Below, piece after piece: positions 1 through 22,981 of a stretch of DNA of 64,000 bases. The notes beneath the pieces are model-generated. The model worked only from the letters and a program-made list of their open reading frames with translations, made no database searches and was not told where the DNA came from. Numbering within the stretch: the stretch's first letter is position 1; each line of letters begins with the position of its first letter. The stretch is from Patescibacteria group bacterium (lineage in GTDB: Bacteria; Patescibacteriota; Patescibacteriia; 2-01-FULL-39-33): NCBI GenBank assembly GCA_041650895.1, contig JBAZKF010000001.1, positions 701,181 to 765,180 on the forward strand, read 5' to 3'. A program made the translations under genes and the position numbers.

Positions 1-29
1 TGTAAAAGGTGGTATCAAGACCGCGACAA

Positions 30-60
<31 letters not shown>

Positions 61-892
61 TAAAGATAGCGTAATAGCTCACTGGTCAAGTTTTCTTGCG
101 CCGAAAATGTATCGGGGCTAAACATAGTACCGAAATTGCGAATTCTATATTTATATAGAGTGGTAGAGGAGTGTTCTTAGCGGAACGAAGCCGTAGCTGT
201 GAGGCGCGGTGGACTGCTAGGAAGTAAGAATGTTGGCATAAGTAGCAAGAATCTAGATGAAAATTCTAGACACCGTAAATCCGAGGTTTCCTGGGCAACG
301 AGAATCGACCCAGGGTTAGCCGGTCCTAAGACGAGGCCGAAAGGCGTAGCCGATGGACGAGCAGGTTAATATTCCTGCGCTGGCTTGATTTTCCGAAGGA
401 GTGACGCATCAGGGGAGATATATCGTCCTATGGCTATGACGATGACGTTAGTAGTTGTGATCGGTAGGCAAATCCGCCGATCATTAAGCAACGAATACGC
501 CAGCAGAGGAAGCCGCAAGGCGGACTCAATTATATTAAACCGAGTGCCATGAAAAACTTCTAGGGCTAAGATCAAGGCAACCGTACTTAAACCGACACAG
601 GTGGATGAGGCGAGTAGCCTCAGGTGTATGAGAGAAACTTCGCTAAGGAACTCGGCAAAAAATCGGCCGTAACTTAGGGATAAGGCCTCCCCAAATTTAT
701 TTGGGGCGCAGCTAAAGATGTCAAGCGACTGTTTACCAAAAACTTAGGTCCCTGCTAAAGCGCAAGCTGATGTATAGGGGCTGATGCCTGGCCAGTGTCT
801 GAACGTTAAGAGGAGAGGTCAACCGGTTTACCGGGGCAGCTTTGAATTGAAGCGCAGATGAACGCCGGCCGTAACTATAACGGTCCTAAGGT

Positions 893-1583
893 TTTGCATC
901 GGAAGCATTCGGATGCAAAAGGACTGGGACCGTTATCTATTAACGCTACCTCTTCTTATAGTAATATAAGAATGGTCCAAAAATACTTAGCCATATGCTG
1001 GGAAAATCGGCAAAACTATGGTAAAATTATACCATAGAAAATAACTTAATTTATGCCGATTAATCAGCAGGAAAGGCTAAAATTCGAGCATTGGATAGTT
1101 GGTTTTACTGATGGCGAAGGCTGTTTTTCAGTCAGCATCATCAAGAATCACACTACCAAGTCAGGATGGCAGATTTTTCCTGAATTTGTGATTACACAGG
1201 GAGAAAGAAGTCTTAAGGCGCTGGAAAAAATTAAAAAATTTTTTCGGTGCGGTAAGATTTATATCAACCGTCGGAAAGATAATCATCAAGAGAATCTTTA
1301 TCGTTATTGTGTAAGATCAGTCAGTGACTTATCTGAAATTATAATTCCATTTTTCTCCGCTCACCGGTTGCAAACAGCCAAAGCGGATGATTTCAAAAAG
1401 TTTATCAAGATAATAAAATTGATAAAACAAGGAAAGCATCTCAAAGAGAATGGAAAGATACAAATCGCCAGGATCATTGAACAAATGAACCGTCGAACGC
1501 CAGCTCGATTTTTAGAATCCCCAGAGACCAAACGCTAAGCATCCCATCGGGATGAAGATAGAGTCCTAAGAAAGGAAACTTAG
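893..1583 (+). mobile_element. Group I intron in 23S rRNA (inserted after ...CCTAAGGU, E. coli ~1917 region), carrying a homing endonuclease ORF
   Basis: Exon sequence CGGTCCTAAGGT is broken at 892 and resumes with AGCGAAATTCC at 1584. The upstream exon ends in U and the intron ends in G (omegaG). The 691-nt insert contains a LAGLIDADG ORF. Confidence 0.75.
1053..1538 (+). CDS. LAGLIDADG-family homing endonuclease (intron-encoded)
   Basis: Motif WIVGFTDGEGCFSV near the N-terminus (LAGLIDADG-type helix), a basic 161-aa protein lying inside the rRNA intron. Confidence 0.8.
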   Translation: MPINQQERLKFEHWIVGFTDGEGCFSVSIIKNHTTKSGWQIFPEFVITQGERSLKALEKIKKFFRCGKIYINRRKDNHQENLYRYCVRSVSDLSEIIIPFFSAHRLQTAKADDFKKFIKIIKLIKQGKHLKENGKIQIARIIEQMNRRTPARFLESPETKR

Positions 1584-2122
1584 AGCGAAATTCCTTGACG
1601 GGTAAGTTCCGTCCCGCACGAATGGCATAACGACTTGACAACTGTCTCAGCGAAGTACTCAGCGAAATTGCAAGGGAGGTGAAGATGCCTCCTACCCGTG
1701 GTTAGACGAAAAGACCCCGTGAAGCTTTACTACAACTTTGCACTGAATTGTGATCTAATATGTTTAGAATAGGTGGGAGCCTTCGGGCGCCAGTGAAATA
1801 CCACCCTTATTATATTATAATTCTAACTTCCTCCCGTAATCCGGGAGAGGGACAGTGTATGGTGGGTAGTTTAACTGGGGCGGTTGCCTCCCAAAATGTA
1901 ACGGAGGCGTTTACAAAGGTTGGCTAGCTCCGGATGGAAATCGGAGTGATAGCGCAAAAGCACAAGCCAGCTTTACTGCGAGACCTGCAAGTCGAGCAGT
2001 TACGAAAGTAGAATTTAGTGATCCGACCATTCAATGTAGGATGGTGGAAGCTCATCGGATAAAAGCTACTCCGGGGATAACAGGCTAGTCTGGTCCAAGA
2101 GTCCATATCGACGACCAGGTTC

Positions 2123-2155
<33 letters not shown>

Positions 2156-2189
2156 GTGGAGAAGCTCCCAAGGGTTTGGCTGTTCGCCA

Positions 2190-2241
<52 letters not shown>

Positions 2242-2641
2242 CTATCTACCATGGGCGCAGAAATTTGAGAAGGCCACTTCCTAGTACGAGAGGACCGGAA
2301 GTGACGAACCTCTAGTGTACCAGCTGTTCTGCCAAGGGCATCGCTGGGTAGCTACGTTCGGTTAAGATAAACGCTGAAAGCATCTAAGCGTGAAGCTGTC
2401 TTCAAGATTAGATTTCATTAAACCCCTTCGAGACGAGGAGGTTGATAGGTCGCAGGTGTAAGCGCAGTAATGCGTTCAGCCGAGCGATACTAATGGTTTA
2501 GTTTAATCGCAAGAATGGATAACACCCCGCTAACCGGTTTCCGGTTTGTCGGGACATGCGATTCGCTGTCACACCCATGAGTTTTGCGGCACAAGCCGCA
2601 ACGATTCATAAACATTTCTTTACTGATTTAGCTATAGAATT

Positions 2642-7998: not shown

Positions 7999-9420
7999 AT
8001 GGGTTTAGCGGCAAAAATCGCTCAGAATACTTTTTGGCAAATCGTCGGCAAATTTGCCGGTACGGTTTTGGGTTTGATTACCATCGCCCTGATGACACGC
8101 TATCTGGGTCGTGAAGGATTCGGCTATTACACCACCATTATTTCTTTTTTGCAGTTTTTCGGCGTCTTGATTGATTTCGGCTTGCAGATGGCCACGGCGC
8201 AGATGCTGTCCCGTCCAGGAGTTAATCAGCATAAAATTTTTGCCAATATCCTGACGGTCCGTCTGCTTTCAGCCATAGTTTTCTTGGGTACGGCATCGGC
8301 TTTAGTTTGGTTTTTGCCCTACCCATTGGCCATTAAACTGGGTGTTGGCGTCGCTTCGTTTTCTTTTTTCTTTATTTCCTTGCAATCGGTTTTGATCGGT
8401 TTATATCAGAAGCAAATGGCTATGGCTGAAGTGGCAATCGCCGAAGTCTGGGGCAGATTCATTCTACTGCTGGGCGTTTGGCTGGCTGTTATGCTGGATT
8501 GGGGTCTTTTGGCTGTTATCGTCGCCGTGTCTTTGGGCAGTCTGGTGAATTTTCTATACTTAGTCATCGGGGCGCGCAAACATCTGATCTTAAAACTGGA
8601 AGTTGATTTTAAGGTTTGGCGGCAAATCTGGGATGTGTCTTGGCCGTTAGCCGTTACCATTTCTTTGACCTTGGTCTACTTTCGCGCTGATACGATTATT
8701 TTGTCTTTGGTTCGCCCGGCCGAGGAAGTCGGTATTTATGGTGCGGCCTACAAGGTGTTGGAGACACTGATTCAATTTCCTTATTTGTTTCTGGGTTTGA
8801 TTTTACCGCTTTTAACCGAGTTTTATTTGACCAGTAAAGTGTTATTTGAAAAGACTCTACAGAAATCTTTTGATTTTATGGCTATTTTAGCCGTACCTAT
8901 GGTTATGGCCACTTGGCTTTTGGCAGAGAAAATTATGGAGTTTGTGGCCGGCGCTGATTTTGTTATTGCCGCCGGGCCATTAAGGATTTTGATTGTGGGA
9001 GCAGCCATGATTTATTTCGGCGCTTTGGCCGGCTACGCTATTGTGGCTTGCGGCTTACAGAAAAAAATGATTTGGTTTTATCTTTTTGACGCTGTCTTTT
9101 CTTTAGCGGCTTATTTGATTTTTATTCCTATTTTTTCCTATTGGGCCGCGGCGATTCTTACTCTGGCGACAGAAACAGTTATTGCTCTGTCTGCTTTTTA
9201 TGTCTTGCGTCGGGAAACCAAGGCTAGGATTAATTTATGGGTTTTGGGTAAATCCCTCTTAGCTTCGTTAGTTATGGGTTTATGCCTTTATCCGCTGTTG
9301 AACCAAAATATTTTGACTTTAGTGATTATCGGCGCAGTTATTTATTTTCTCGCTCTTTATTTGCTTAGAGGTTATGACAAGCGCGAGGTAATGGATATGA
9401 TCAAATTAAAAAAAATATAA
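7999..9420 (+). CDS. Oligosaccharide flippase (Wzx/MOP superfamily) polysaccharide biosynthesis protein
   Basis: 473 aa, ~14 TM, N-terminal KFAGTVLGLITIALMTRYLG typical of PST/Wzx proteins. Confidence 0.7.
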   Translation: MGLAAKIAQNTFWQIVGKFAGTVLGLITIALMTRYLGREGFGYYTTIISFLQFFGVLIDFGLQMATAQMLSRPGVNQHKIFANILTVRLLSAIVFLGTASALVWFLPYPLAIKLGVGVASFSFFFISLQSVLIGLYQKQMAMAEVAIAEVWGRFILLLGVWLAVMLDWGLLAVIVAVSLGSLVNFLYLVIGARKHLILKLEVDFKVWRQIWDVSWPLAVTISLTLVYFRADTIILSLVRPAEEVGIYGAAYKVLETLIQFPYLFLGLILPLLTEFYLTSKVLFEKTLQKSFDFMAILAVPMVMATWLLAEKIMEFVAGADFVIAAGPLRILIVGAAMIYFGALAGYAIVACGLQKKMIWFYLFDAVFSLAAYLIFIPIFSYWAAAILTLATETVIALSAFYVLRRETKARINLWVLGKSLLASLVMGLCLYPLLNQNILTLVIIGAVIYFLALYLLRGYDKREVMDMIKLKKI

Positions 9421-9426
9421 AATTAT

Positions 9427-10722
9427 ATGGTCCCAATGTTTTTTCTCGGCTTAGCCGCTATTCTTTTTTTCTTTTTGGCGTATTATCGTCCGCTTTGGTC
9501 CGCTTACCTGATTATCGCTTTATTGCCGACTTATGTCGTGCGTTTTCAAATCCTGACTATTCCTTTTACTTGGTTGGAAGCGATGGTGCTGATTTTATTC
9601 GTGGTTGTTTTACTGAAAAGGAATTTTAATTGGCAAGTTATCAAGTCTGACCCTCTATTTTACCCAGCCTTGGCTGTTCTGGTTGCCGCTACGGTTGCGG
9701 TTTTTGTTTCACCTTTGCCATTGAAGGCCTTGGGCGCTTGGAAGGCTTATTTTTTGGAGCCGATTTTATTTTATTTTATTTTGATTTCATTGATTACTGT
9801 CCGACGGCAAATAGAAGGAGCGTTCTGGGGCTTGGGTTTGTCAGTGCTTTATATGGGGTTGATTTGTTATGTGCAAAAGTTTATTGGCTGGGGAGTACCC
9901 CAAGCGTTTTTGACTGCCAGTGGCAGTGTTGACCGGGTGGTCGGTACTTATGGTTACCCTAACGCCTTAGGATTGTTTTTTGGGCCGATTATTATTGCTT
10001 TTGTCGGTTTTTTATTTTATCGCAATCAGGATTCATTATTGCTTTACCTGTCCAACCGTCAGCGGCAGTGGCTGAAGTGGCTAGTGATTATCGTTGGTTT
10101 CAGTGTTATCGTTCTGGCGCAATCGGAAGGAGCCATGCTGGCTGTTTTGGTGGTTGGTTTTTTGTTGCTTTTATTCAATCGGCGTTCCCGCGCCTATGCC
10201 TTGATATTTTTGGCCTTTTCCGTTATAATTGTTTTGCTCAACAGCGGCTTACGCGAGTTGATTTGGCAGAAAATATCATTGCAGGATTATTCCGGCTTTA
10301 TCCGCCGGTTGATTTGGGGTGAAACCTGGCAGATGATCAAGGATCATTGGCTTTTTGGCGGCGGCTTGGCCGGTTATCCGGCTTCCATTTTACCTTATCA
10401 TACCCATTGGTTTGAGGTTTTTCCTTATCCACACAACATTCTGCTTAATTTTTGGAGTGAAACAGGGATTTTGGGCATCGGCGCTTTTTTGTGGCTAACG
10501 GGTAAGCTCGTTTATGATAACTTGAAGAATATTTTTTCCATTGTTTGGCGCTATAGCCAAGAATGGCCGTTTGATAAGATCGCCAGCGTGGTTTTTCTGG
10601 CTGTAATTCTGGAAATATTGATTCACGGCTTAGTAGATGTGCCTTATTTTAAAAATGATTTATCCCTGTTAGTTTGGATACTTCTGGCCGTATCAACGTT
10701 GAATATCAGGTATAAGAAATGA
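9427..10722 (+). CDS. O-antigen ligase-like (Wzy_C) polytopic membrane protein
   Basis: 431 aa multi-TM protein with a large periplasmic loop region; adjacent to the flippase. Confidence 0.55.
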   Translation: MVPMFFLGLAAILFFFLAYYRPLWSAYLIIALLPTYVVRFQILTIPFTWLEAMVLILFVVVLLKRNFNWQVIKSDPLFYPALAVLVAATVAVFVSPLPLKALGAWKAYFLEPILFYFILISLITVRRQIEGAFWGLGLSVLYMGLICYVQKFIGWGVPQAFLTASGSVDRVVGTYGYPNALGLFFGPIIIAFVGFLFYRNQDSLLLYLSNRQRQWLKWLVIIVGFSVIVLAQSEGAMLAVLVVGFLLLLFNRRSRAYALIFLAFSVIIVLLNSGLRELIWQKISLQDYSGFIRRLIWGETWQMIKDHWLFGGGLAGYPASILPYHTHWFEVFPYPHNILLNFWSETGILGIGAFLWLTGKLVYDNLKNIFSIVWRYSQEWPFDKIASVVFLAVILEILIHGLVDVPYFKNDLSLLVWILLAVSTLNIRYKK

Positions 10723-14460: not shown

Positions 14461-17400
14461 CTATTTGCCGGCAATCTTATCTTTAAGTTTGTCTAATAAT
14501 GACTCAAAAGTCCGGACAAGAATCTGATTGGGGTCATTCTCTCCTGGTTTGGCGGCAAAGACTTCACCAAGGAGTTGCCCGCGGAAATTAACCGTGGCCC
14601 TAAAGGAGTTTTTTGACGGATCATAAAGCCAATCAATCAGCGGCGCTTGTCCTTTGGTTAATCCTAAGTTAATCGGCGTTGGTGTCTTAAAAGTAACATC
14701 GCCGGTGAAAGCGCTGACATGGGTTTGCGACACTTCAAAATCCGGCATATTAAATTCTTTTTTGTAATAACCATTTAAGCCATTGGTTTGAAAAACCCTT
14801 TCCAGTGATCCGCCTACTCCTTGGCTACGACCCAAAGCCGAGCCATGCAACACTTCCAGCCAATCAGCTATGTTTTTCTGGTTACGAAAAATATCATTAG
14901 TGTTGATGAGCCCGATTAGTTTGGCATTCCCGGCCACTTCCGGGTGGTCTAAAAATTCCAGCAGTTTTTCCGCCGATTGATCATGGCTGGAAACCAGTTC
15001 TATTAAGCCGACTGACGGTTTGAATTCCGGATGATGGTAAAAGTAATCGGTTAATACCGCGAGTTTTTCTTGGTCAGTTTGACCAGTCGTCTCCATGGCG
15101 GCAGTCTGAAGGATCTCAGCCGATCCCGGGTACTTGGCATCAATGTTGCTTAATATTTTTTCTGTTGCTGTTACAGAAATGGGTGATTCGGCAGTGACGG
15201 CCGGAGCAGTAACTTCGGCGGCTGCGGTCCCCGGCTTATTTTCCAGGTATTCAAATTCTTTGGCAATCATGGCGCCGTGCTCTCCGACCGGTTTGCTATC
15301 TATGAATTCGTGGACGTGATTTTTATTATCTAAAAGATATTGAGCGTGGCCAATGCCGCCGCCCGCAACGCGGATTTCCGCCCCGGTTTTCGGATCGACA
15401 TAATGTTCGTCAATGGCGATTTGATGCGCTCGCATGCCAGCCCAATGATGCAGGGCGTTTTTGTTTTCCAGGTCTCCAGCATAGCCGAGTTCTTTGGCGT
15501 TAGCTTCCAATTGTCGATGCAGGGCGTGTTCGATACCCTCGCCTTTGCCAATAGTCGCCAGGCCTAGTTGTTCTTTGGGTGGGATAAACTCGGTATGCTC
15601 AAGCTTGGCAATGGCCGCCGGAGCAGTTCCCGTTTCAACTGAGGCAACTTCGGTGCTACTAGTTGACGGAGCTGGTTCATTCTGCCACCAAGAGCCGATT
15701 TTATGGGCCGCGGCGCCGGCCGCTTCTCCCAGGGCTATTCCGGCTAAGGCTCCAGCGATAACTCCCGCCGTTTTAACGGCGTTTCGTTTGTATTTTTTGC
15801 TGTCAAGATTTGTTTTTTCTGATTCTAACTCTTTGAATTTTTCAAAAATATCATTAGCCTCTGCCTCCTGATCAATAATATATTTTTCAGTGTTAATTTT
15901 TTCTCCCCAACCTTTTTTCCCGCTAAGGTATTCGGCTCCGACTGCTCCCAGTTTGGCGCCGGCGAGTCCGCTGACAACTCTTCTGCCCCAAGCGCCGGCT
16001 CCGCCATAACGCAGAGCTTGGCCGATCCCAAACAAGGCCGCGCTGGTGACAGTCTTTTCTCCGGCACTGCTTCCGCCGGCTAGAAAGAGTTTGTCTACCC
16101 CTTTGACCGCCTTGTTGGCCCAAGGGTGCTTATCCAGCCAATCAGCGTTGGTTCTGTTTAGTAGGTTATAATGTTGTTCTAAGGCCTCCAATCCCCGGGT
16201 ATCAAAAGCCACCTCTACGGTAGAAACATTTTCCAATATGTCGGGGTTGACAGTCAAACAGTCAGCTAATGAACCCTCTCGGTTCTGGCCTAACTGCAAT
16301 TGCTTGGCTATAGCCAAATCAGCAAAGAATCCTTTTAAGTAATCTTTTTGCGCTGATTCGTTTTCAGTCAGTTCTTGCCTGATTTCTTGCAATTTCTCCT
16401 CCTCTTCTTTTCTGGTTTTTTTGCCGACGAGGTGAATGTCCGCCAATCTAATGGCGCCAATAGCCAAAGGAGAGAAAAAAGATGCCAGGCCGCCGGTAGC
16501 AATTGAAATGCCAATGCCACCACCGATATACAGAGCGCTTTTAGCCAGGGCCTTACCCGCTTCTTTCTTAAAGCTTTTACTTCCAGCTATTTTTTTCTGC
16601 GCTTCCTGACGCAACTTGTTTTCTTGTTGTTGGAAGATTTGCCTTACTGCTTTCTCATCCAAGCCGGATGCCTCGGCATAATTTTTGACTATTTTTTCCA
16701 GCAAAACCGTATTTTCTTTTTTCTGGGGGTTAGATAGTATTTCTATCAATTGGTTTCCCGGTATCTTCCCCAGTTCTGATTTTCTGATTGTCTTAATGGA
16801 AGCAAAGCCGGCTTCGTATTTAGCCCGTAATTTTTCATCAGGACTCAAGGTCGCAATAGTATTATTGCCTCTTCTTCCGGCAACTAATCTTTGGGAATTG
16901 AGTTCGTTGAATATTTCAACAAGGTTCTTGCTGACGACAGCCGGTGGTGGCGTTTCCAAAGTGCTTAAAATATATGATAATTCTTCCGGACTTAGTGGTG
17001 ATGATTCAGGCTCCTCCGGTTCAAGAGGTGCTTCTGCCGGGATGGTTTTTTTTGTTGTCGTTTCCGGTGTCGGCAATGCCGGGGTGGTCTTTTGAATTGG
17101 TGCGTCTTCGGTAATAGGCGGTAAGGCACTGACCTCGTCGGGCGATTCAAGTATAGCAGAAAGCGCATCAGGCACCTCGGGCAAGGCCGAGGTTACCGGT
17201 GCTTCGCTAGTGCTTGCTTCTTCATCTTCTCCCCCCAGCCAACTTTTCAATAAGGCATTAGTTGCTCTAGCCGTAGCCGAAAAAGTTTCTGCTTGTTTAA
17301 CCGCCGCCTCTTTGGATTCAGCGGTATCGCCGGCAGCGGCAGCTTCCATTTCGATGGCATGTTCTATCTCTGCCAGAAGTCTTTCAGCAGTGTTTAAATC

Positions 17401-17544
17401 ATTATTCGTCGCTTGTTCTTCGGATACGGCATCAAGTTCGGCAAGTAGTCTGGCTAACTCCGGGTTTTCATTCAAAGACAAGCCAAACTTTTGTTCGGCT
17501 CCGCCGTCTTTTGGCAATGTTTTTTCATCTTTTTTTCTTGTCAT
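14461..17544 (-). CDS. Giant (1027 aa) hypothetical protein, GC-elevated, with acidic/Pro-Thr-rich low-complexity N-terminal half and Gly-rich membrane-like segments
   Basis: Single long ORF; segments GGGIGISIATGGLASFFSPLAIGAI and AGVIAGALAGIALGEAAGAAA; no catalytic motif recognised. Confidence 0.6.
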   Translation of the reverse strand: MTRKKDEKTLPKDGGAEQKFGLSLNENPELARLLAELDAVSEEQATNNDLNTAERLLAEIEHAIEMEAAAAGDTAESKEAAVKQAETFSATARATNALLKSWLGGEDEEASTSEAPVTSALPEVPDALSAILESPDEVSALPPITEDAPIQKTTPALPTPETTTKKTIPAEAPLEPEEPESSPLSPEELSYILSTLETPPPAVVSKNLVEIFNELNSQRLVAGRRGNNTIATLSPDEKLRAKYEAGFASIKTIRKSELGKIPGNQLIEILSNPQKKENTVLLEKIVKNYAEASGLDEKAVRQIFQQQENKLRQEAQKKIAGSKSFKKEAGKALAKSALYIGGGIGISIATGGLASFFSPLAIGAIRLADIHLVGKKTRKEEEEKLQEIRQELTENESAQKDYLKGFFADLAIAKQLQLGQNREGSLADCLTVNPDILENVSTVEVAFDTRGLEALEQHYNLLNRTNADWLDKHPWANKAVKGVDKLFLAGGSSAGEKTVTSAALFGIGQALRYGGAGAWGRRVVSGLAGAKLGAVGAEYLSGKKGWGEKINTEKYIIDQEAEANDIFEKFKELESEKTNLDSKKYKRNAVKTAGVIAGALAGIALGEAAGAAAHKIGSWWQNEPAPSTSSTEVASVETGTAPAAIAKLEHTEFIPPKEQLGLATIGKGEGIEHALHRQLEANAKELGYAGDLENKNALHHWAGMRAHQIAIDEHYVDPKTGAEIRVAGGGIGHAQYLLDNKNHVHEFIDSKPVGEHGAMIAKEFEYLENKPGTAAAEVTAPAVTAESPISVTATEKILSNIDAKYPGSAEILQTAAMETTGQTDQEKLAVLTDYFYHHPEFKPSVGLIELVSSHDQSAEKLLEFLDHPEVAGNAKLIGLINTNDIFRNQKNIADWLEVLHGSALGRSQGVGGSLERVFQTNGLNGYYKKEFNMPDFEVSQTHVSAFTGDVTFKTPTPINLGLTKGQAPLIDWLYDPSKNSFRATVNFRGQLLGEVFAAKPGENDPNQILVRTFESLLDKLKDKIAGK

Positions 17545-17547
17545 AAA

Positions 17548-17757
17548 TTATCTGCCTAATCCTTTTAAGATCGCTTTGATTTTTTCTTCATCCAGTTTTT
17601 TTTGTTGAGCTTCTATCATTTTACGGCCTTCATTTTTTATTTTTTTTAATTGCAACATTGTTTCTCGATATAATTTATCCAGTTTTTTTAATTCTCGCGC
17701 CAGGTCGCCCTTTGTGGCTATTTTTTTAGTGACGATTTTTTGAACTTTTTTGGCCAT
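17548..17757 (-). CDS. Small basic coiled-coil protein
   Basis: 69 aa, K/E-rich; stop of upstream gene 7 nt away (operon with 14461..17544). Confidence 0.5.
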   Translation of the reverse strand: MAKKVQKIVTKKIATKGDLARELKKLDKLYRETMLQLKKIKNEGRKMIEAQQKKLDEEKIKAILKGLGR

Positions 17758-17764
17758 AATATAG

Positions 17765-18088
17765 TTATGCCGGCTCGTTTTTTTGAGTTAAAGCAACAAA
17801 ATCATTGGCGAAAGCAATTAAGCCATCCTTGACTTTTTGGTCAAAGTCAGGAATTTGATCGGCTAGTTCTTGGATTTTGGCATTGTCCAGTGTTTTATTA
17901 TCAATCATAGCTTGGAACTCTTGTTGTTTGGCCTCGTCAAGGTTTTGCAAAAGAATCAGTCCTAATTGTTGGTTGAGTAGCTCTTCCAACTTAGTCATGT
18001 ATTGCGCCTTAAATTCTTGGGACATTTGGTCTAGACCGGCTTCAGCCATCAGTTTTTCCAAAAATGATTTGATAAATTCTTTATCCAT
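17765..18088 (-). CDS. Hypothetical acidic helical protein
   Basis: 107 aa, first gene of a three-gene minus-strand operon. Confidence 0.5.
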   Translation of the reverse strand: MDKEFIKSFLEKLMAEAGLDQMSQEFKAQYMTKLEELLNQQLGLILLQNLDEAKQQEFQAMIDNKTLDNAKIQELADQIPDFDQKVKDGLIAFANDFVALTQKNEPA

Positions 18089-18352
18089 AAATTTTGATTA
18101 ATTTTCTAATATTAATTATACCATATTTTGGCTAATTCAAGAAATTACTTATAAAACACTGATTATTATATATTATTTTATCTAATTTTAGATAAAATGT
18201 GTGATCAGCCGGCTAGTGGAGTTGATAAAGGTATTGACAAAATATTATAAGTATGATATAATGGAATGATTCGGCAACGTGAGCCGGAAGCACCTACTAA
18301 CTTTTGAATTACTGGTTACAAATCGGCAATCACCAAAGAGGAGGAAGAAGCC

Positions 18353-19051
18353 ATGTCTGGTGGTCAATTGAGTGGAAGCGTTCAGGATCAGCAACAAGAT
18401 CAACAATCCGGCGGTAGCCAGGATAAGCCCGCGTTAGCCGTCCCCCGGTTTATTTTTTACGGGCTCTTACTTTGCCTGGGCATGATGTTGTTTTTTGCGT
18501 TTGTAGTCGGCGGCGTGAAAAAGGACGTGTCTTCGTTGACGACACGTGTGATCGCCTTGGCGGCTAATCAGTCTGTGACGGATGAAGCTCAGTCCGTGAC
18601 GAATGAAGCGTTGGCATTCGGCGTGGCCAAGGCTAAGTCCCGGCTGGACAAACGCGTCCAGACCGAGAACGAGCAGCTCCTGGTTAAATGGCGGACAATT
18701 AGAGATCGGGGCGGCGATGATTCCGAACTCGGACAGAAATCCGAGAAGGAAATCAAACGACTGCTGACTAACGGCATCTGGGATATTGAGTCGACCATCA
18801 CCAAGGAGTATGACGAGTTGATGGCGACGTCAATCAGTGATGTTAGCGCCTTGGCTGATACGGCTAACAAGAAAGCCAAAGCCGCGCAAGCCGCCGCTGA
18901 CAACGCCCAAATAACGGCCAATGTCAGTATCCGGGCGACGGAAATTATTGCCCAACCGACGGCTTGCGCAAAACACTCGGTCAGCAAAGAGCAGAAGAAG
19001 AGTTTGCAAGAACTCTTGGCCGAGTACCGGCAAAGTCAAGCCGGAAGTTAA
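18353..19051 (+). CDS. Membrane-anchored hypothetical protein
   Basis: Promoter TTGACA-17-TATAAT at 18233-18261; RBS AGAGGAGGAAG; single TM. Confidence 0.55.
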   Translation: MSGGQLSGSVQDQQQDQQSGGSQDKPALAVPRFIFYGLLLCLGMMLFFAFVVGGVKKDVSSLTTRVIALAANQSVTDEAQSVTNEALAFGVAKAKSRLDKRVQTENEQLLVKWRTIRDRGGDDSELGQKSEKEIKRLLTNGIWDIESTITKEYDELMATSISDVSALADTANKKAKAAQAAADNAQITANVSIRATEIIAQPTACAKHSVSKEQKKSLQELLAEYRQSQAGS

Positions 19052-19148
19052 ATCAGAAGAACATTTTTTACCCCCGGGTCCATTATGGATTCCGGGGGTG
19101 ATTTTTTTAAGTTGTTTTTATATTTTTATGTTTTTATGTTATAATATT

Positions 19149-20585
19149 ATGAGTAAGAATAATATTATGACTAATACTAAAATTTATCTTTTTGCTTTGG
19201 TGGTGTTGGCGTTAGTGATGGCTACCGCCGGTTTCGGCTGTAAATTACTCAGCTCTGCCGAACAGGAAGCCGTTAAGCCGATCACTTTAAGTTACTGGCG
19301 CGTTTGGGATGATTCTGACGCTTTTGATGCAATTATCAAAGATTACCAAGTCCAGCATCCCAATATCACCATTAATTACCGCAAGTTTCGCATGGAAGAG
19401 TATGAGAGCTATCTGCTTAACGCCTTGGCCGAGGACCGCGGACCGGATATCTTTTCTATTCCTATTACTTGGCTGCCCAAATATGAGAATAAGATTTCGC
19501 CCTTGCCCGCCAAATACCAGATGGGCTACATTATAGAAAAAGGCACGATTCAGAAAGAACAAGTTGTTGAGTTAAGAACCAAAACCTCGCCCACCATCAG
19601 GGAAATCAAGTCTTTATTTTTTGATACCGTCAGTAATGATGTGATTATAGACAATAGGATTTACGGCTTGCCGCTCAGCTTGGAATCGCTTATCATGTTC
19701 TATAATAAGGATTTATTGAATCAAAACAGCATCGCTCAAGTGCCGACCGATTGGTCAGCGTTTCAGGACGCCGTGGAAAAGATCACCAAAGTCTCCGATA
19801 CTCAGAAAATTTTGGTGGCGGGCGCGGCTTTAGGTATGGGTTATAATATTAATTATGCTTTTGATATTTTGTCCGTCCTAATGATGCAAGCCGGAGCCAC
19901 CATGGCCGATGGCAATGGTTATGCCACCTTTTTTAAGAATATCCAGCAAGCGGACGGCAGTGGCGGTTACAAGACAGCCAATCCCGGGCAGACCGGGTTG
20001 CAATTCTATACTGATTTCGCCACCGTAGGAAAACGCGTCTATTCTTGGGATGCCTCTCTGCCTAACTCTTTTGATGCTTTTACCCAAGGCAAGTTAGCTT
20101 TTTTCTTCGGTTATAATTTTAATATTCCTCAGGTGCGAGCGCAATCGCGAGTTAATTTCGGCGTAGCGCCGATTCCTCAGATTGCCGGCAATCCCAGTAA
20201 GAATTACGCTGATTATTGGGTAGAGACTGTGACTAAAGCCTCTGCTCATCATAATGAGTCTTGGGATTTTCTGTTGTTCATTAATGACGCCGGAACTAAT
20301 AAGAGTTATCCGGAAATAAAAAAGTTTTTGGCTAAGACCTCCAAACCGACTGCTCTCCGCGATCTGCGCGATAGCCAATTGAGCAATGAAGATTTGTATC
20401 CTTCGGCTTATCAAGCGCCTTCAGCTTTCAGCTGGTACAAGGGCAAGAATTTCGACGCGGCCAAACAAGCCGTAATAGAAATGATTGAACAGTATCTCAA
20501 GATGTCCGATCCCCGACAGGAATTATCTAAGATTATCGGCGTGGCTGTGGAAAAAATCAATCAAACGGTCACCCAGCAGTATTAG
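19149..20585 (+). CDS. ABC transporter substrate-binding lipoprotein (family-1 sugar/solute SBP)
   Basis: Lipobox LVMATAGFGC; the long 18921 ORF is an upstream extension overlapping the previous gene and is rejected; TGTTATAAT just upstream of the ATG. Confidence 0.7.
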   Translation: MSKNNIMTNTKIYLFALVVLALVMATAGFGCKLLSSAEQEAVKPITLSYWRVWDDSDAFDAIIKDYQVQHPNITINYRKFRMEEYESYLLNALAEDRGPDIFSIPITWLPKYENKISPLPAKYQMGYIIEKGTIQKEQVVELRTKTSPTIREIKSLFFDTVSNDVIIDNRIYGLPLSLESLIMFYNKDLLNQNSIAQVPTDWSAFQDAVEKITKVSDTQKILVAGAALGMGYNINYAFDILSVLMMQAGATMADGNGYATFFKNIQQADGSGGYKTANPGQTGLQFYTDFATVGKRVYSWDASLPNSFDAFTQGKLAFFFGYNFNIPQVRAQSRVNFGVAPIPQIAGNPSKNYADYWVETVTKASAHHNESWDFLLFINDAGTNKSYPEIKKFLAKTSKPTALRDLRDSQLSNEDLYPSAYQAPSAFSWYKGKNFDAAKQAVIEMIEQYLKMSDPRQELSKIIGVAVEKINQTVTQQY

Positions 20586-20621
20586 CTTTTGTAATTGCTT
20601 TATTTTTGTTATAATACGCTT

Positions 20622-21044
20622 ATGTTCAGAAAAGGACTGAAAATATTGGCTGTTCTTTCGGTGTTGCTGGCGTTGAATACTCCGGCAGTTTTGGCCGCCT
20701 GTACGGCCAAGCCGACCACTGGCCCGTCTTCCTATTTACTCAAAGATATCAGCGTGGACTGTTTTTGTAACGGCGTTTGCGGTCTTTGCGATTTGCTTCA
20801 GGTTGGAATTACCGGCACCAATATGATTTTGTCTCTCTCCGGCATTGTCGCTTTATTGTTGTTTATTTATGGTGGTACTTGGTTTTGGCTGTTGTCTTTC
20901 GGTGATCAGAATAAGATTAAAAAAGGCAAAAGCTTGATGATTAATACGGTTATCGCTTTGGCAATAATTATGGCTGCCTTTACCATAGTTAATTTCTTGT
21001 TTACTTCTTTAGTCGGTAGTTCTTTTGGAACCACTTGCGGTTAA
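20622..21044 (+). CDS. TrbC/VirB2-like (T4SS-pilin-type) small membrane protein, paralog 1, with extra Cys-rich N-terminal module
   Basis: Signal peptide plus two hydrophobic helices separated by a KKGK loop (LLFIYGGTWFWLLSFGDQNKIKKGKSLMINTVIALAII); TGTTATAAT -10 box 6 nt upstream of the ATG. Confidence 0.55.
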   Translation: MFRKGLKILAVLSVLLALNTPAVLAACTAKPTTGPSSYLLKDISVDCFCNGVCGLCDLLQVGITGTNMILSLSGIVALLLFIYGGTWFWLLSFGDQNKIKKGKSLMINTVIALAIIMAAFTIVNFLFTSLVGSSFGTTCG

Positions 21045-21054
21045 TAGTAATTTT

Positions 21055-21396
21055 ATGAAAAACTTTTTTAAGACAACACTGTTACTTTTGTTTCTGGCTG
21101 CCGCGCCGTTTTCAGTTTACGCCGTTCAATTGGTTGATCCGTTGAATCTGCCGCCAGGCGAGCCGATTCCCGCCTTGGCCGCTCGGTTGATTAATGCGCT
21201 TTTAGGCTTAGTCGGCATTGCCGCTCTCTTATCCTTTATTTACGGTGGCATATTATGGATGACTGCCGGTATTAGTGCCGATAACGTCAAGAAAGGTAAA
21301 ACCGTCATGATTTGGGCGGTCGCTGGACTACTGGTAATTTTTTCTTCTTACGCCGTTGTTACTTATATTTTCAGTATCTTGGTTCCTACCAGTTAA
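21055..21396 (+). CDS. TrbC/VirB2-like pilin-type protein, paralog 2
   Basis: LLSFIYGGILWMTAGISADNVKKGKTVMIWAVAGLLVIFSSYAV. Confidence 0.55.
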   Translation: MKNFFKTTLLLLFLAAAPFSVYAVQLVDPLNLPPGEPIPALAARLINALLGLVGIAALLSFIYGGILWMTAGISADNVKKGKTVMIWAVAGLLVIFSSYAVVTYIFSILVPTS

Positions 21397-21536
21397 GGAG
21401 TAAAGGAATTCAATATAAATAGTGCTCTAAAATAATAATTTAAATTTTGCTTTTGTCGGGTAAAGTATTGCGATGTCGCAGCTGCGATCACAATCAAAAA
21501 TTTGACGATTGCAAGCACGGAAGGGAGGTGACAAGA

Positions 21537-21935
21537 ATGAAAAAAACTTTAAAGAAATTATTGGCCTCCATATTGGTTGTTGTGGCCATGTCCATGTTCG
21601 CTTTGCCGGTGTTGGTCAGCGCGCAAGAGGACGTCCAAAGCATTGACTTGGATCTTATAGCCAGTACGGCCGGAATTGAACAGGGAAACCTCAACAGCAT
21701 TATTGGCGGTATCCTGAATGTGGCCATGGGATTTTTGGGTGTTATTGCGGTTTTGATCATCCTTTATGGTGGTTTTATCTGGATGACTGCCGGTGGCGAA
21801 CAAGATAAGGTGGACAAAGCCAAGAAAATGATTTATGCCGGTATTATCGGTTTGGTCATTATTTTTGCCGCTTACGCCATTGCCATGTTTGTCATGAGTA
21901 ATCTGCGATCAATTGTCGGTAATACTGGAGTTTAG
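21537..21935 (+). CDS. TrbC/VirB2-like pilin-type protein, paralog 3
   Basis: RBS GGGAGGTG; VLIILYGGFIWMTAGGEQDKVDKAKKMIYAGIIGLVIIFAAYAI. Confidence 0.55.
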   Translation: MKKTLKKLLASILVVVAMSMFALPVLVSAQEDVQSIDLDLIASTAGIEQGNLNSIIGGILNVAMGFLGVIAVLIILYGGFIWMTAGGEQDKVDKAKKMIYAGIIGLVIIFAAYAIAMFVMSNLRSIVGNTGV

Positions 21936-22008
21936 TCAAAATTATTTTCTCCCCTTAGGGGGAGATTAGGAGATGATAAAATATTTTGTGATCTGCTAAT
22001 TTCTTCTT

Positions 22009-22467
22009 ATGAAAAAGACTCTTAAAATTTCAATTCTTACATTATTCATCTTTACTATTTTTGCCGTTTCTCCGGTTATGGCGCAGGTCCAGGAGGGCTT
22101 GACTAATCTGGGCAGTGTCGGCCAGGATACCGGACTTAAAGTAATCGGTGGAGGGAGCTTGCCGACGATTGTCGGCGGAGTGGTGCAGGCGGTTTTGGGT
22201 ATTTTGGGCACTTTGTTGGTTTTACTTTTGATTTACGCCGGCTTTATCTGGATGACGGCGCAAGGCAATGAGAAAAAGGTGGATGAAGCCAAGAAAATGA
22301 TTTATAATGCCGTTATCGGTCTGGCTATTGTCGCCGGTGCTTGGGCGATCACTTCTTTCGTTTTGGATCAGTTGCAACGGGCCGGATCAGGCAGTCAAGC
22401 AATTACTTCGCAACAAGTCAAGGGTTCGCCGACCAATCCAGATGATATTACTTACGATTGGGGTTAG
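22009..22467 (+). CDS. TrbC/VirB2-like pilin-type protein, paralog 4 (C-terminal extension)
   Basis: LLLIYAGFIWMTAQGNEKKVDEAKKMIYNAVIGLAIVAGAWAI. Confidence 0.55.
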   Translation: MKKTLKISILTLFIFTIFAVSPVMAQVQEGLTNLGSVGQDTGLKVIGGGSLPTIVGGVVQAVLGILGTLLVLLLIYAGFIWMTAQGNEKKVDEAKKMIYNAVIGLAIVAGAWAITSFVLDQLQRAGSGSQAITSQQVKGSPTNPDDITYDWG

Positions 22468-22513
22468 AGCCGCAGCTTAAAAAGTTAGTATTAAAATAAT
22501 TAAAATAAAAATT

Positions 22514-22891
22514 ATGAAAAAAATGATTAAAAAAATCGGCCAACAGGGCATAGCTCTGGCTTTGTCCGCAATGGCTTTGTCCGTGCCGCTAATCGTCCGC
22601 GCCGTTGAATTCAGGACATTCCTTGGTGAGACTGGATTAGAAAGTCAATTCGGCAGTGGTGATTTGATGCCAATGATTGGGACAGCAATCAGTATTATCT
22701 TGGGTGTTTTGGGAGTGATTCTGGTTTTGATTGTTATTTATGCCGGCTTCTGGTGGATGACGGCTCAAGGTGATGAAAAGAAAGTAGAGAAGGCCAAGAA
22801 AATGATCTATAATGCTATTATCGGGTTGGTTATTATTTTTGCCGCTTACGCCATAACTAATTTTGTTTTGGATCAGTTGGAAAGCATATAA
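22514..22891 (+). CDS. TrbC/VirB2-like pilin-type protein, paralog 5
   Basis: LIVIYAGFWWMTAQGDEKKVEKAKKMIYNAIIGLVIIFAAYAI; followed by terminator 22910-22946. Confidence 0.55.
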   Translation: MKKMIKKIGQQGIALALSAMALSVPLIVRAVEFRTFLGETGLESQFGSGDLMPMIGTAISIILGVLGVILVLIVIYAGFWWMTAQGDEKKVEKAKKMIYNAIIGLVIIFAAYAITNFVLDQLESI

Positions 22892-22981
22892 AAGAAAATT
22901 TCAATTAATAAAACCGATTCGGCTAACCGAGTCGGTTTTATTTTTGTTTATGGGTTGCCGGCCATCGTCGGTTAGCCAAAG

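What the first reader, a model, noticed from the sequence alone, without database searches (positions are those of the whole stretch)
20595..22946. Tandem array of five paralogous TrbC/VirB2-like (T4SS-pilin-type) genes
Five consecutive small ORFs (113-152 aa) share the same architecture. Each has a signal peptide followed by two hydrophobic helices, with the conserved core LG.LG...VL..IY.GF.WMTA.G...KV..AKKMIY.A.IGL.I...AYAI..F. This is the TrbC/VirB2 conjugative-pilin pattern (two TM helices joined by a short charged loop). Members differ mainly in the mature N-terminal region. Paralog 1 carries a Cys-rich module (CTAKP...CFCNGVCGLC) and paralog 4 a C-terminal tail. No VirB4/VirD4 ATPase lies in the window, so this is an orphan pilin array. 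Several members have TGTTATAAT -10 boxes only 6-12 nt from the start codon, suggesting leaderless or near-leaderless mRNAs. An imperfect palindrome (ATTGCGATGTCGCAGCTGCGATCACAAT, 21465-21492) sits upstream of paralog 3 and could be an operator.
Basis: partly seen in the sequence, partly recalled or inferred. Interest (0 to 1): 0.55.

Follow-up and report, generated by a model that had tools for sequence, protein, structure and literature searches.

The report
VirB2-like pilin gene array, Patescibacteria
Five neighbouring small genes encode divergent copies of a type IV secretion "pilin-like" membrane hairpin protein, an arrangement already described in ultra-small Patescibacteria; the one possibly new detail is that the array is coupled to a sugar-binding-type lipoprotein gene.

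Summary
Five co-oriented genes (P1 20622-21044, P2 21055-21396, P3 21537-21935, P4 22009-22467, P5 22514-22891) each encode a signal peptide, a short variable ectodomain and a two-helix hydrophobic hairpin with a Lys-rich loop. All five pass the gathering threshold of Pfam PF18895 (T4SS_pilin), and four also hit TrbC/VirB2.

The window is a Patescibacteria chromosome close to Ca. Buchananbacteria, with no VirB4/VirD4-type ATPase in 64 kb.

This kind is already published. VirB2-like pilin arrays of 2-11 genes occur in hundreds of Patescibacteria assemblies, and one is essential in S. epibionticum. My profile finds about 77,000 family representatives. The verdict is a new member of a known kind.

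What I add:
- Each paralog has a 1:1 ortholog in three related genomes and is under purifying selection (dN/dS 0.04-0.18), so this is an old, subfunctionalised set rather than a fast-varying one.
- Gene order is conserved: a Cys-loop member first, an "NPL" member second, then canonical copies.
- A family-1 solute-binding-protein lipoprotein gene (19167-20585) lies directly upstream in most related arrays and pairs specifically with the Cys-loop member. I found no report of this.
- Terminators bracket the six genes. The intergenic palindrome is conserved; its function is unknown.

The parts
19071..19107 (+). Intrinsic terminator of the preceding gene (18353-19051); marks the upstream boundary of the unit
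   Evidence: GC-rich hairpin ACCCCCGG...CCGGGGGT followed by a T-run, read directly from the sequence.
19117..19145 (+). Promoter-like site with extended -10 box TGTTATAAT, ahead of the SBP gene
   Evidence: 10 of 12 consensus match with TG. TGTTATAAT is invariant in L027-L029.
19167..20585 (+). Family-1 solute-binding-protein-type lipoprotein (472 aa, lipobox-like GFGC); conserved partner gene directly upstream of the array
   Evidence: An ortholog profile hits solved sugar SBPs at E 2e-24. 15 of 20 upstream proteins match Pfam SBP_bac_1. The ATG at 19167 is the conserved start. The gene sits directly upstream of the array in 16 of 25 distant loci and 3 of 3 close ones. dN/dS is 0.035.
20607..20615 (+). 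Extended -10 box TGTTATAAT, 6 nt before the P1 ATG (possible internal promoter and leaderless start)
   Evidence: the box and its spacing are conserved in four genomes, with TGCTATAAT in L028.
20622..21044 (+). P1: divergent pilin-like protein, 140 aa, with a Cys loop (C..G..C...D) before TM1 and a lipobox-like LAAC
   Evidence: PF18895 at 33.1 bits. Position-1 orthologs share the Cys loop. dN/dS 0.08-0.10.
21055..21396 (+). P2: divergent pilin-like protein, 113 aa, with a D/NPL motif at the mature N-terminus; the most TrbC-like member
   Evidence: PF18895 at 33.3 bits and TrbC at 27.9 bits, equal to the cutoff. Position-2 orthologs are shown.
21422..21536 (+). Conserved non-coding region containing the palindrome ATTGCGATGTCGCAGCTGCGATCACAAT (21465-21492) and a strong Shine-Dalgarno GGGAGGTG for P3
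   Evidence: Nearly invariant in four genomes whose synonymous sites are close to saturation. The upstream TTG-ORF extension is broken by TGA in L027 and L029, so the region is non-coding. RNA fold z-score is -1.26 and there is no Rfam hit.
21537..21935 (+). P3: canonical pilin-like protein, 132 aa
   Evidence: PF18895 at 38.3 bits. Position-3 orthologs. dN/dS 0.04-0.085.
21948..21965 (+). Conserved GC-rich hairpin TCTCCCC-TTAG-GGGGAGA after P3, with no T-tract on the + strand
   Evidence: invariant in four genomes.
22009..22467 (+). P4: canonical pilin-like protein, 152 aa, with a variable hydrophilic C-terminal tail
   Evidence: PF18895 at 43.8 bits and NF045849 at 43.2 bits. dN/dS 0.17, with the tail most variable.
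22514..22891 (+). P5: canonical pilin-like protein, 125 aa
   Evidence: PF18895 at 40.2 bits and NF045849 at 50.4 bits. AlphaFold2 hairpin at pLDDT above 90. dN/dS 0.04-0.05.
22907..22942 (+). Intrinsic terminator ending the unit
   Evidence: 16-bp stem plus T-run. The stem is kept in relatives through paired changes.

Best explanation
This is a chromosomal operon of a Patescibacteria genome (ABY1 class, close to Ca. Buchananbacteria). It encodes one SBP-type lipoprotein followed by five old, non-redundant VirB2-like 'T4SS pilin' paralogs.

Shown:
- Each pilin-like protein has a Sec signal peptide with an AxA-type cleavage site, a short extracytoplasmic segment, and a helix-loop-helix hydrophobic hairpin with a Lys-rich connecting loop.
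- The six genes are co-oriented, tightly spaced and bracketed by terminators.
- Every paralog has a 1:1 ortholog under purifying selection in related genomes.

Inferred:
- After export and signal-peptide removal, the hairpins form a membrane pool.
- A VirB4/VirB6-type (MPF-FATA-like) type IV secretion machine encoded elsewhere in the roughly 0.96-Mb genome extracts and polymerises them into a surface filament or channel used for contact or exchange with a host cell.
- P3-P5 (45-50% identical, canonical) would be the bulk subunits.
- P1 (Cys-loop) and P2 (NPL) would be low-abundance initiator or tip subunits.
- The SBP lipoprotein, which always travels with the Cys-loop member, would be an accessory, either a glycan-binding or an assembly factor.
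For: Family membership: PF18895 is above threshold for all five proteins, TrbC/VirB2 hits four of five, and NF045849 is passed by P4 and P5.

Topology and structure: three hydrophobic segments and a basic loop; AlphaFold2 hairpin at pLDDT above 90.

Array organisation is the rule for this family: all 25 related loci from GTDB genomes carry 3-16 tandem copies.

Literature: pilin arrays lie within the essential T4SS locus of S. epibionticum (PMC10633639; PMC12857230). 441 arrays are reported across Patescibacteria. VirB4 is present in 2,417 of 3,035 assemblies, and the pilin lay near virB4 in only 1,135 of 1,948 (PMC12102498).

Independent link to a monoderm T4SS: a Pontibacillus megaplasmid has two adjacent homologs 4 kb upstream of a VirB4-like CD1110-family ATPase and a peptidoglycan hydrolase.

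Functional maintenance: dN/dS is 0.04-0.18 for each paralog, against 0.03-0.10 for the neighbours PGI and DHH.

Positional orthology of P1, P2 and P3 holds across distant lineages.

Operon structure.
Against: No T4SS ATPase, VirB6, VirB3 or VirB8 homolog was found in the 64-kb window. None recurs within 10 kb either side of the 25 GTDB arrays, and a phmmer search with a Firmicute VirB4 found nothing in any of the 32 fetched loci. The machinery link therefore rests on homology and literature.

I could not inspect the rest of the source genome.

No solved pilin is detectable by sequence profile. Foldseek gives only generic helical hairpins, best E 0.5. hhalign against A. tumefaciens VirB2 aligns in register but at 5.8% probability.

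No T4SS pilus has yet been seen on any Patescibacterium, according to the papers read.

The roles assigned to P1, P2 and the SBP are analogy only.
Confidence: 0.6

Rival explanations
1. The proteins are T4SS components but do not form an extended pilus. They would act as membrane-embedded channel or stalk subunits of a monoderm-type T4SS, as may hold for the Mbov_0395 family in wall-less Mycoplasma ICEs and in Firmicute clusters.
For: The best NCBIfam match is the Mycoplasma ICE 'pilin-like conjugal transfer protein'. A Firmicute homolog pair sits in a CD1110-type VirB4 cluster. Reviews state that Gram-positive T4SSs generally lack pili (PMC10633639).
Against: Five to sixteen differentiated paralogs with variable exposed N-terminal segments, and some with large Cys-rich ectodomains, are hard to explain for a buried channel part. 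The family resembles TrbC/VirB2 along the whole hairpin.
Confidence: 0.2
2. The array is a repertoire of interchangeable major pilins for antigenic or host-range variation, as proposed for the Bartonella and Anaplasma VirB2 paralogs and suggested for Patescibacteria.
For: Paralogs differ most in the exposed N-terminal segment and in the tails. Copy number varies from 3 to 16 between lineages. The hypothesis is stated in PMC12102498.
Against: Orthology is strict 1:1, with 71-95% identity across related genomes (W against L027 and L028), and every paralog is under purifying selection. The exposed segment has dN/dS about 0.1 and shows no excess of replacement changes. Positions 1-3 are conserved as distinct subtypes across distant lineages. 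No recombination or switching repeats were seen. This reading may still apply to the canonical copies P3-P5.
Confidence: 0.12
3. The SBP lipoprotein and the hairpin proteins form a module that is independent of the T4SS. It could be a surface or membrane apparatus for binding or importing host-derived sugars, with the PF18895 similarity reflecting only a shared hairpin fold.
For: The SBP gene lies immediately upstream in 16 of 25 distant and 3 of 3 close loci, and in 3 of 3 loci picked by SBP similarity alone. No ABC permease or ATPase gene lies nearby. No VirB4 lies nearby. Recurrent neighbours are glycan-related genes: Polysacc_synt, Wzy_C, NTP_transferase and glycosyltransferases.
Against: Homologous arrays in Saccharibacteria lie inside T4SS clusters. 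A Firmicute homolog lies in a VirB4 cluster. Arrays also exist without the SBP. No known SBP-dependent transporter uses two-helix subunits that carry signal peptides.
Confidence: 0.08

Closest known systems
VirB2-like pilin arrays of Patescibacteria (the essential array of six in the Ca. Southlakia epibionticum ML1 T4SS locus; the 'array of small signal-peptide proteins' in Nanosynbacter lyticus TM7x; 441 arrays in 383 assemblies)
   Same: Same Pfam family (PF18895). Tandem array of sequence-divergent copies that share one architecture. Here the mean identity is about 30-50%, against a published mean of 25% and maximum of 54%. Chromosomal, in an ultra-small monoderm.
   Different: This array is not inside or next to a T4SS gene cluster. 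It is led by an SBP-type lipoprotein gene and has a fixed subtype order (Cys-loop, NPL, canonical). It belongs to the ABY1/Paceibacteria side of the phylum, not to Saccharimonadia or Microgenomatia, where arrays were reported as most abundant. Related loci reach 12 and 16 copies, above the published range of 2-11.
Classical conjugative pilins TrbC/VirB2 (Pfam PF04956; A. tumefaciens VirB2, RP4 TrbC)
   Same: Long signal peptide, two hydrophobic helices and a short basic loop. Weak but full-length HMM similarity: P2 at 27.9 bits, P3-P5 at E 1.6e-4 to 2.4e-3. The alignment to VirB2 is in register.
   Different: Only P2 reaches the family threshold. The host is a monoderm. There is no adjacent virB operon. 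There is no evidence for cyclisation or for a pilus. Multiple paralogs take the place of a single major pilin.
Mbov_0395 family pilin-like conjugal transfer proteins (NCBIfam NF045849) of Mycoplasma ICEs and Firmicute CD1110-type T4SS clusters
   Same: P4 and P5 exceed the model cutoff and P3 is 0.3 bits below it. The Pontibacillus cluster has two adjacent homologs near VirB4. One of them carries an 'AACTA' sequence after its signal peptide, like P1.
   Different: Those genes lie on mobile elements beside VirB4 and a cell-wall hydrolase. Here the genes sit in a housekeeping chromosomal neighbourhood with no mobile-element features.
Tandem VirB2 paralogs of Bartonella and Anaplasma phagocytophilum T4SSs
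   Same: Several divergent pilin paralogs in tandem in a host-dependent bacterium (cited in PMC12102498).
   Different: Those are interpreted as antigenic or host-range variation. Here, orthologs are conserved 1:1 under purifying selection.

Membership tests
Pfam PF18895 T4SS_pilin | Whole-protein HMM score at or above the gathering cutoff (26.6 bits) | tested here: met
   P1 33.1, P2 33.3, P3 38.3, P4 43.8, P5 40.2 bits.
Pfam PF18895 T4SS_pilin | Signal peptide followed by a two-helix hydrophobic hairpin with a short charged loop | tested here: met
   Hydropathy and AxA sites; AlphaFold2 helices 51-82 and 88-124 at pLDDT above 90; alignment.
Patescibacteria VirB2-like pilin array (as in PMC12102498) | Two or more pilin genes in tandem, with low identity within the array | tested here: met
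   Five genes at 29-50% pairwise identity. All 25 related loci also carry arrays.
Patescibacteria T4SS locus (as in S. epibionticum ML1) | Pilin genes encoded within or next to the VirB4/VirB6/VirB3(PrgI)/TrsD cluster | tested here: not met
   No such Pfam family was found in any window ORF of 250 aa or more, nor in most ORFs of 120-249 aa that are not nested inside a longer ORF. The only Walker-A ORF is PhoH. phmmer with a Firmicute VirB4 found nothing in the window or in 32 loci.
Patescibacteria T4SS locus (as in S. epibionticum ML1) | VirB4 present somewhere in the same genome | not testable with these tools
   The source contig (957,791 bp) could not be retrieved.
Pfam PF04956 TrbC/VirB2 | HMM score at or above the gathering cutoff (27.9 bits) | tested here: inconclusive
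   P2 scores 27.9, exactly at the cutoff. P4 22.2, P5 19.9 and P3 18.5 are below it, and P1 has no hit.
Pfam PF04956 TrbC/VirB2 | Structural or sequence similarity to solved conjugative pilins | tested here: inconclusive
Pfam PF04956 TrbC/VirB2 | Polymerises into an extracellular conjugative pilus | not testable with these tools
   Needs microscopy or biochemistry.
NCBIfam NF045849 Mbov_0395 pilin-like conjugal transfer protein | Score at or above the cutoff (40 bits), with an ICE or conjugative context | tested here: inconclusive
   P5 50.4 and P4 43.2 pass; P3 scores 39.7; P1 and P2 score about 20. The context is chromosomal housekeeping genes, not an ICE.
ABC-transporter family-1 solute-binding protein (the partner gene 19167-20585) | SBP_bac_1/SBP_bac_8 homology | tested here: met
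   The window protein alone has no Pfam hit at E 0.01. However, 15 of 20 proteins in its upstream-gene alignment match SBP_bac_1, the alignment profile hits solved sugar SBPs at E 2e-24, and homologs at 47-59% identity carry PF01547 and PF13416.
ABC-transporter family-1 solute-binding protein (the partner gene 19167-20585) | Encoded with cognate ABC permease and ATPase genes | tested here: not met
   No BPD_transp_1 or ABC_tran in the window ORFs scanned. Neither recurs in the flanks of the 25 loci.

The most novel reading that the evidence does not exclude
The SBP-type lipoprotein, the Cys-loop hairpin protein (P1) and the NPL hairpin protein (P2) may form a conserved, undescribed accessory module. 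This module would define a distinct class of Patescibacteria VirB2-like arrays. The sugar-binding-fold lipoprotein would act as the receptor-binding or assembly-initiating partner of the filament, for example by recognising a host or self glycan. That would give the first functional handle on what these pili contact.
Probability: 0.2. Interest if true: 0.65.

Novelty: new member of a known kind. Interest (0 to 1): 0.35.

Why it matters
The role of the type IV secretion system and its unusual pilin arrays in Patescibacteria is an open question. They are essential in the one species tested, and their function is described as completely unknown (PMC11665869).

This locus does not change that picture. 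It does show that, in the ABY1/Paceibacteria side of the phylum, the arrays are old, ordered and selectively maintained sets, and that they are coupled to an orphan sugar-binding-type lipoprotein and sit in a glycan-biosynthesis neighbourhood. If that coupling is functional, it points to a testable partner or ligand for the filament.

Tried and rejected
- **Family profile against PDB sequences.** Only spurious repeat hits to designed 'Pizza' proteins.
- **hhalign of the family profile against one verified A. tumefaciens VirB2.** The alignment was in register but the probability was 5.8%. I did not build a VirB2 profile.
- **Retrieving the source contig to look for VirB4.** The 100%-identical proteins P0001 and P0121 are indexed on a 957,791-bp contig, but the exact-product look-up failed.
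- **tblastn of P2 and P5 against plasmids.** One weak Firmicute hit only.
- **RNA-element reading of the conserved P2-P3 spacer.** Fold z-score -1.26. No Rfam family. No copies outside the close relatives. No covariation is possible because the sequence is invariant.
- **Diversifying-selection or antigenic-variation reading.** Rejected for orthologs, with dN/dS 0.04-0.18. dS is near saturation, so the ratios are approximate.
- **Extended TTG start of P3.** Rejected, because the extension contains a stop codon in L027 and L029.
- **ATG at 19149 as the SBP start.** Rejected, because it is not conserved.
- **The roughly 522-aa proteins upstream of arrays that lack the SBP.** They are not SBPs: hhalign probability 0.1% and no Pfam hit.
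Full report
**What is there.**
The region holds five co-oriented + strand genes. Using ATG starts that match the gene calls in close relatives, they are P1 20622-21044 (140 aa), P2 21055-21396 (113 aa), P3 21537-21935 (132 aa), P4 22009-22467 (152 aa) and P5 22514-22891 (125 aa).

They align over a shared core, LG.LG..VL..IY.GF.WMTA.G...KV..AKK.I..A.IGL.I...AYAI..F. Pairwise identity is 29-34% for any pair involving P1 or P2, and 45-50% among P3, P4 and P5.

Each protein has three hydrophobic segments:
- an N-terminal signal peptide, with a small-x-small cleavage site at residues 23-30;
- two transmembrane-length helices, joined by a loop with 3-5 Lys/Arg.

AlphaFold2 models P5 as a helical hairpin (residues 51-82 and 88-124) at pLDDT above 90. 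P1 carries extra cysteines before the first helix, and P4 has a hydrophilic tail of about 30 residues.

**Family assignment.**
- All five proteins exceed the gathering score of Pfam PF18895 (T4SS_pilin), with 33-44 bits against a cutoff of 26.6.
- P2 reaches the TrbC/VirB2 (PF04956) cutoff exactly. P3-P5 hit it at E 1.6e-4 to 2.4e-3 over almost the whole model.
- P4 and P5 pass NCBIfam NF045849, 'Mbov_0395 family pilin-like conjugal transfer protein'.
- A profile built from P5 homologs and the five paralogs finds 77,192 cluster representatives at E of 1e-3 or better in a 1.84-billion-protein library. This is a very large family.
- Named homologs are annotated 'pilin', from Ca. Buchananbacteria and other Patescibacteria.
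- Fold and sequence comparison with solved pilins was uninformative, as expected for a bare helical hairpin.

**Genomic setting.**
The window is a Patescibacteria chromosome. It contains a 23S rRNA gene with a LAGLIDADG-bearing insertion, 5S rRNA, a DUF5663 gene, tRNA synthetases, ClpP, RNase Y and PGI.

Every ORF of 250 aa or more, plus most ORFs of 120-249 aa that are not nested inside a longer ORF, was scanned against Pfam. None is a VirB4, T4CP, VirB6, VirB3 or VirB8 homolog. The only Walker-A ORF of 200 aa or more is PhoH.

Proteins 100% identical to P5 and to the upstream gene are indexed on a 957,791-bp contig of an NCBI MAG with locus tag WC473_03640. I could not fetch that contig. Whether the genome has a VirB4 elsewhere therefore remains untested.

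**What is already known.**
Tandem arrays of VirB2-like pilins are a published feature of Patescibacteria.
- McLean et al. described arrays of 4-6 small signal-peptide proteins related to VirB2 in Saccharibacteria (bioRxiv 258137).
- Wang et al. 2023 showed that predicted pilin subunits inside the T4SS cluster of S. epibionticum are essential (PMC10633639).
- Quinonero-Coronel et al. 2025 used PF18895 and PF04956 and reported (PMC12102498):
  - 441 arrays of 2-11 genes in 383 assemblies, with mean intra-array identity of 25%;
  - VirB4 in 2,417 of 3,035 assemblies;
  - the pilin near virB4 in 1,135 of the 1,948 assemblies that have both.
- A 2025 review highlights the possibility that these monoderm T4SSs build pili (PMC12857230).

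This finding is therefore a new member of a known kind. Being 'orphan' within 64 kb is ordinary.

**Arrays are universal among relatives.**
A degenerate-pattern scan of one genome per GTDB species returned 25 loci. Every one carries a tandem array, of 3 to 16 copies.

**The paralogs are old and individually maintained.**
Three closely related genomes (L027-L029, with P5 89-90% identical) are fully syntenic, and each of the five genes has a 1:1 ortholog.

Nei-Gojobori dN/dS between the window and L027 or L028:

| Gene | dN/dS |
|---|---|
| P1 | 0.08-0.10 |
| P2 | 0.11-0.16 |
| P3 | 0.04-0.085 |
| P4 | 0.17 |
| P5 | 0.04-0.05 |
| PGI (neighbour) | 0.09-0.10 |
| DHH (neighbour) | 0.03-0.05 |

Pooled by region, dN/dS is about 0.25 for signal peptides, 0.10-0.12 for the exposed N-terminal segment, 0.04 for the hairpin and 0.16-0.22 for the tails. 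dS is about 0.4-1.6, close to saturation, so these ratios are approximate.

There is no sign of diversifying selection. The differences in the exposed segment are ancient differences between paralogs, not ongoing variation.

**Gene order encodes subtypes.**
In L002-L006, L009, L015 and the close relatives, the best match of P1 is array position 1, of P2 position 2 and of P3 position 3.
- Position-1 proteins share a Cys loop (C-x-G-x-C-x3-D) just before the first helix, and often a Cys-rich C-terminal extension.
- Position-2 proteins share a D/NPL motif at the mature N-terminus.

**A conserved partner gene.**
Directly upstream, on the same strand and 36 nt from P1, lies a 472-aa lipoprotein-like protein (19167-20585, with a lipobox-like GFGC).
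- Its ortholog profile matches solved sugar-binding proteins of ABC transporters at E 2e-24.
- 15 of 20 proteins in its upstream-gene alignment match Pfam SBP_bac_1.
- An HMM of this SBP finds it immediately upstream of the array, or just after the array's first member, in 16 of 25 distant loci and 3 of 3 close ones.
- The Cys-loop subtype is present in 17 of 20 SBP-linked arrays and in 0 of 9 arrays without the SBP; the two counts cover the 29 loci with arrays, including the window.
- As a test from the other side, I took three SBP homologs chosen only by SBP similarity (about 50% identity). Each is followed at once by a PF18895 gene. For L030 and L031 I translated that gene and it carries the Cys loop; I did not translate the L032 gene.
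- In two of those three (L031 and L032), the main six-gene array lies 5 kb away. The SBP therefore pairs specifically with the gene directly downstream, which is the Cys-loop member wherever I checked.
- Flanking genes differ between lineages while this junction persists.
- No ABC permease or ATPase gene lies in the window or recurs near the arrays.
- Recurrent neighbours are glycan-related genes: Polysacc_synt, Wzy_C, NTP_transferase, glycosyltransferases and DUF2079.
- I found no mention of this SBP link in the key paper or by literature search.

**Link to T4SS in a monoderm.**
The only plasmid hit for P5 is on a Pontibacillus megaplasmid. There, two adjacent homologs lie 4 kb upstream of a 'VirB4-like conjugal transfer ATPase, CD1110 family' gene and a peptidoglycan hydrolase gene.

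**Transcription signals.**
- A terminator at 19071-19107 closes the preceding gene.
- A promoter-like site with TGTTATAAT (19117-19145) precedes the SBP gene. The conserved start of that gene is the ATG at 19167.
- TGTTATAAT occurs only once more in the window, at 20607-20615, 6 nt before the P1 ATG. That box and its spacing are conserved in four genomes. A leaderless P1 transcript from an internal promoter is plausible, but only for P1.
The TTG-ORF extension across it is interrupted by a stop codon in two genomes, so it is a conserved non-coding element.
- That spacer shows no significant RNA fold (z -1.26) and no Rfam match. A protein-binding operator or promoter is as likely as an RNA element, and neither is tested.
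- A GC-rich hairpin after P3 (21948-21965) is also invariant.
- A strong terminator at 22907-22942 ends the unit, and its stem is kept in relatives through paired changes.

**Most likely mechanism (confidence about 0.6).**
The six genes form one transcription unit. The five hairpin proteins are exported through Sec, processed, and held in the membrane. A VirB4/VirB6-type machine encoded elsewhere assembles them into a surface filament or conduit for host interaction. P3-P5 would be the bulk subunits. P1, P2 and the SBP would be minor or accessory components.

The architecture, family membership, operon structure, conservation and subtype order are shown. The assembly machine, filament formation and the division of labour are inferred.

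**Rivals.**
- Membrane-embedded T4SS channel parts rather than a pilus (0.2).
- An interchangeable repertoire for antigenic or host-range variation (0.12), which the purifying selection and strict orthology count against.
- A T4SS-independent module based on the SBP (0.08).

**Verdict.**
The feature is a new member of an already described kind. The SBP and Cys-loop coupling and the fixed subtype order are modest, possibly new details worth a phylum-wide check.

Noticed in passing
window 1-2511 (ORF 1053-1538): The 23S rRNA gene matches model positions 1064-2925 over 2,511 bases. It therefore carries an insertion of about 650 nt, which encodes a LAGLIDADG_1 homing endonuclease (E 1e-24). This is typical of CPR rRNA introns.
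   Followed up: partly
window 58567-62259: The isoleucyl-tRNA synthetase-like protein (1,230 aa) has a histidine-phosphatase (His_Phos_1) domain at residues 574-734, inserted within the class I catalytic domain (E 8e-38). This is an unusual domain insertion.
   Followed up: no
window 7999-10722; L004, L009, L011: In several relatives the gene order is Polysacc_synt (flippase-like), Wzy_C (O-antigen-ligase-like), a 287-aa gene that is probably an NTP-transferase, the SBP, then the pilin array. In the window the first two genes lie about 8 kb upstream, separated from the SBP by tRNA-Ser and poorly conserved genes. From my own knowledge, the Wzy_C family includes pilin O-oligosaccharyltransferases, so pilin glycosylation is an untested idea.
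   Followed up: partly
L012 7490-9058; L013 5977-7548; L016 638-2206; L031 12621-14234; L032 12623-14236: In L012, L013 and L016, arrays without the SBP are preceded by a conserved polytopic membrane protein of about 522 aa (DDPYYH motif near the N-terminus, no Pfam hit). In L031 and L032 a 537-aa protein with no Pfam hit occupies the same position next to a GT2 glycosyltransferase, but I did not compare its sequence with the others. This may be a second class of array partner.
   Followed up: partly
proteins P0241-P0272 and others: Many database proteins contain 2-16 tandem copies of the pilin hairpin in one polypeptide, for example P0272 at 1,775 aa with 16 matched stretches. These could be real fusions or read-through gene calls.
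   Followed up: no
L033 (Pontibacillus plasmid NZ_CP062975.1) 14698-21012: A Firmicute T4SS cluster has two adjacent PF18895-like genes (151 and 145 aa) upstream of a CD1110-family VirB4. The 145-aa one is annotated only as hypothetical. This runs against the common statement that Gram-positive T4SSs lack VirB2-like proteins.
   Followed up: partly
window 20622-21044 (P1 residues 24-27): The signal peptide of P1 ends in LAAC, which fits a lipobox, so P1 may be lipid-modified at Cys27. The motif is conserved in the three close relatives but not in distant position-1 orthologs. The Pontibacillus homolog has a similar SAAC-TA sequence.
   Followed up: partly
window 14461-18088 (- strand) and 18234-19051: A divergently oriented trio is syntenic upstream of the SBP in the close relatives: a DUF5663 gene, a 64-aa ORF, and a Gly-rich membrane protein of about 1,000 aa with no Pfam hit. 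A 232-aa coiled-coil membrane protein follows a perfect TTGACA-17-TATAAT promoter at 18234-18262.
   Followed up: no
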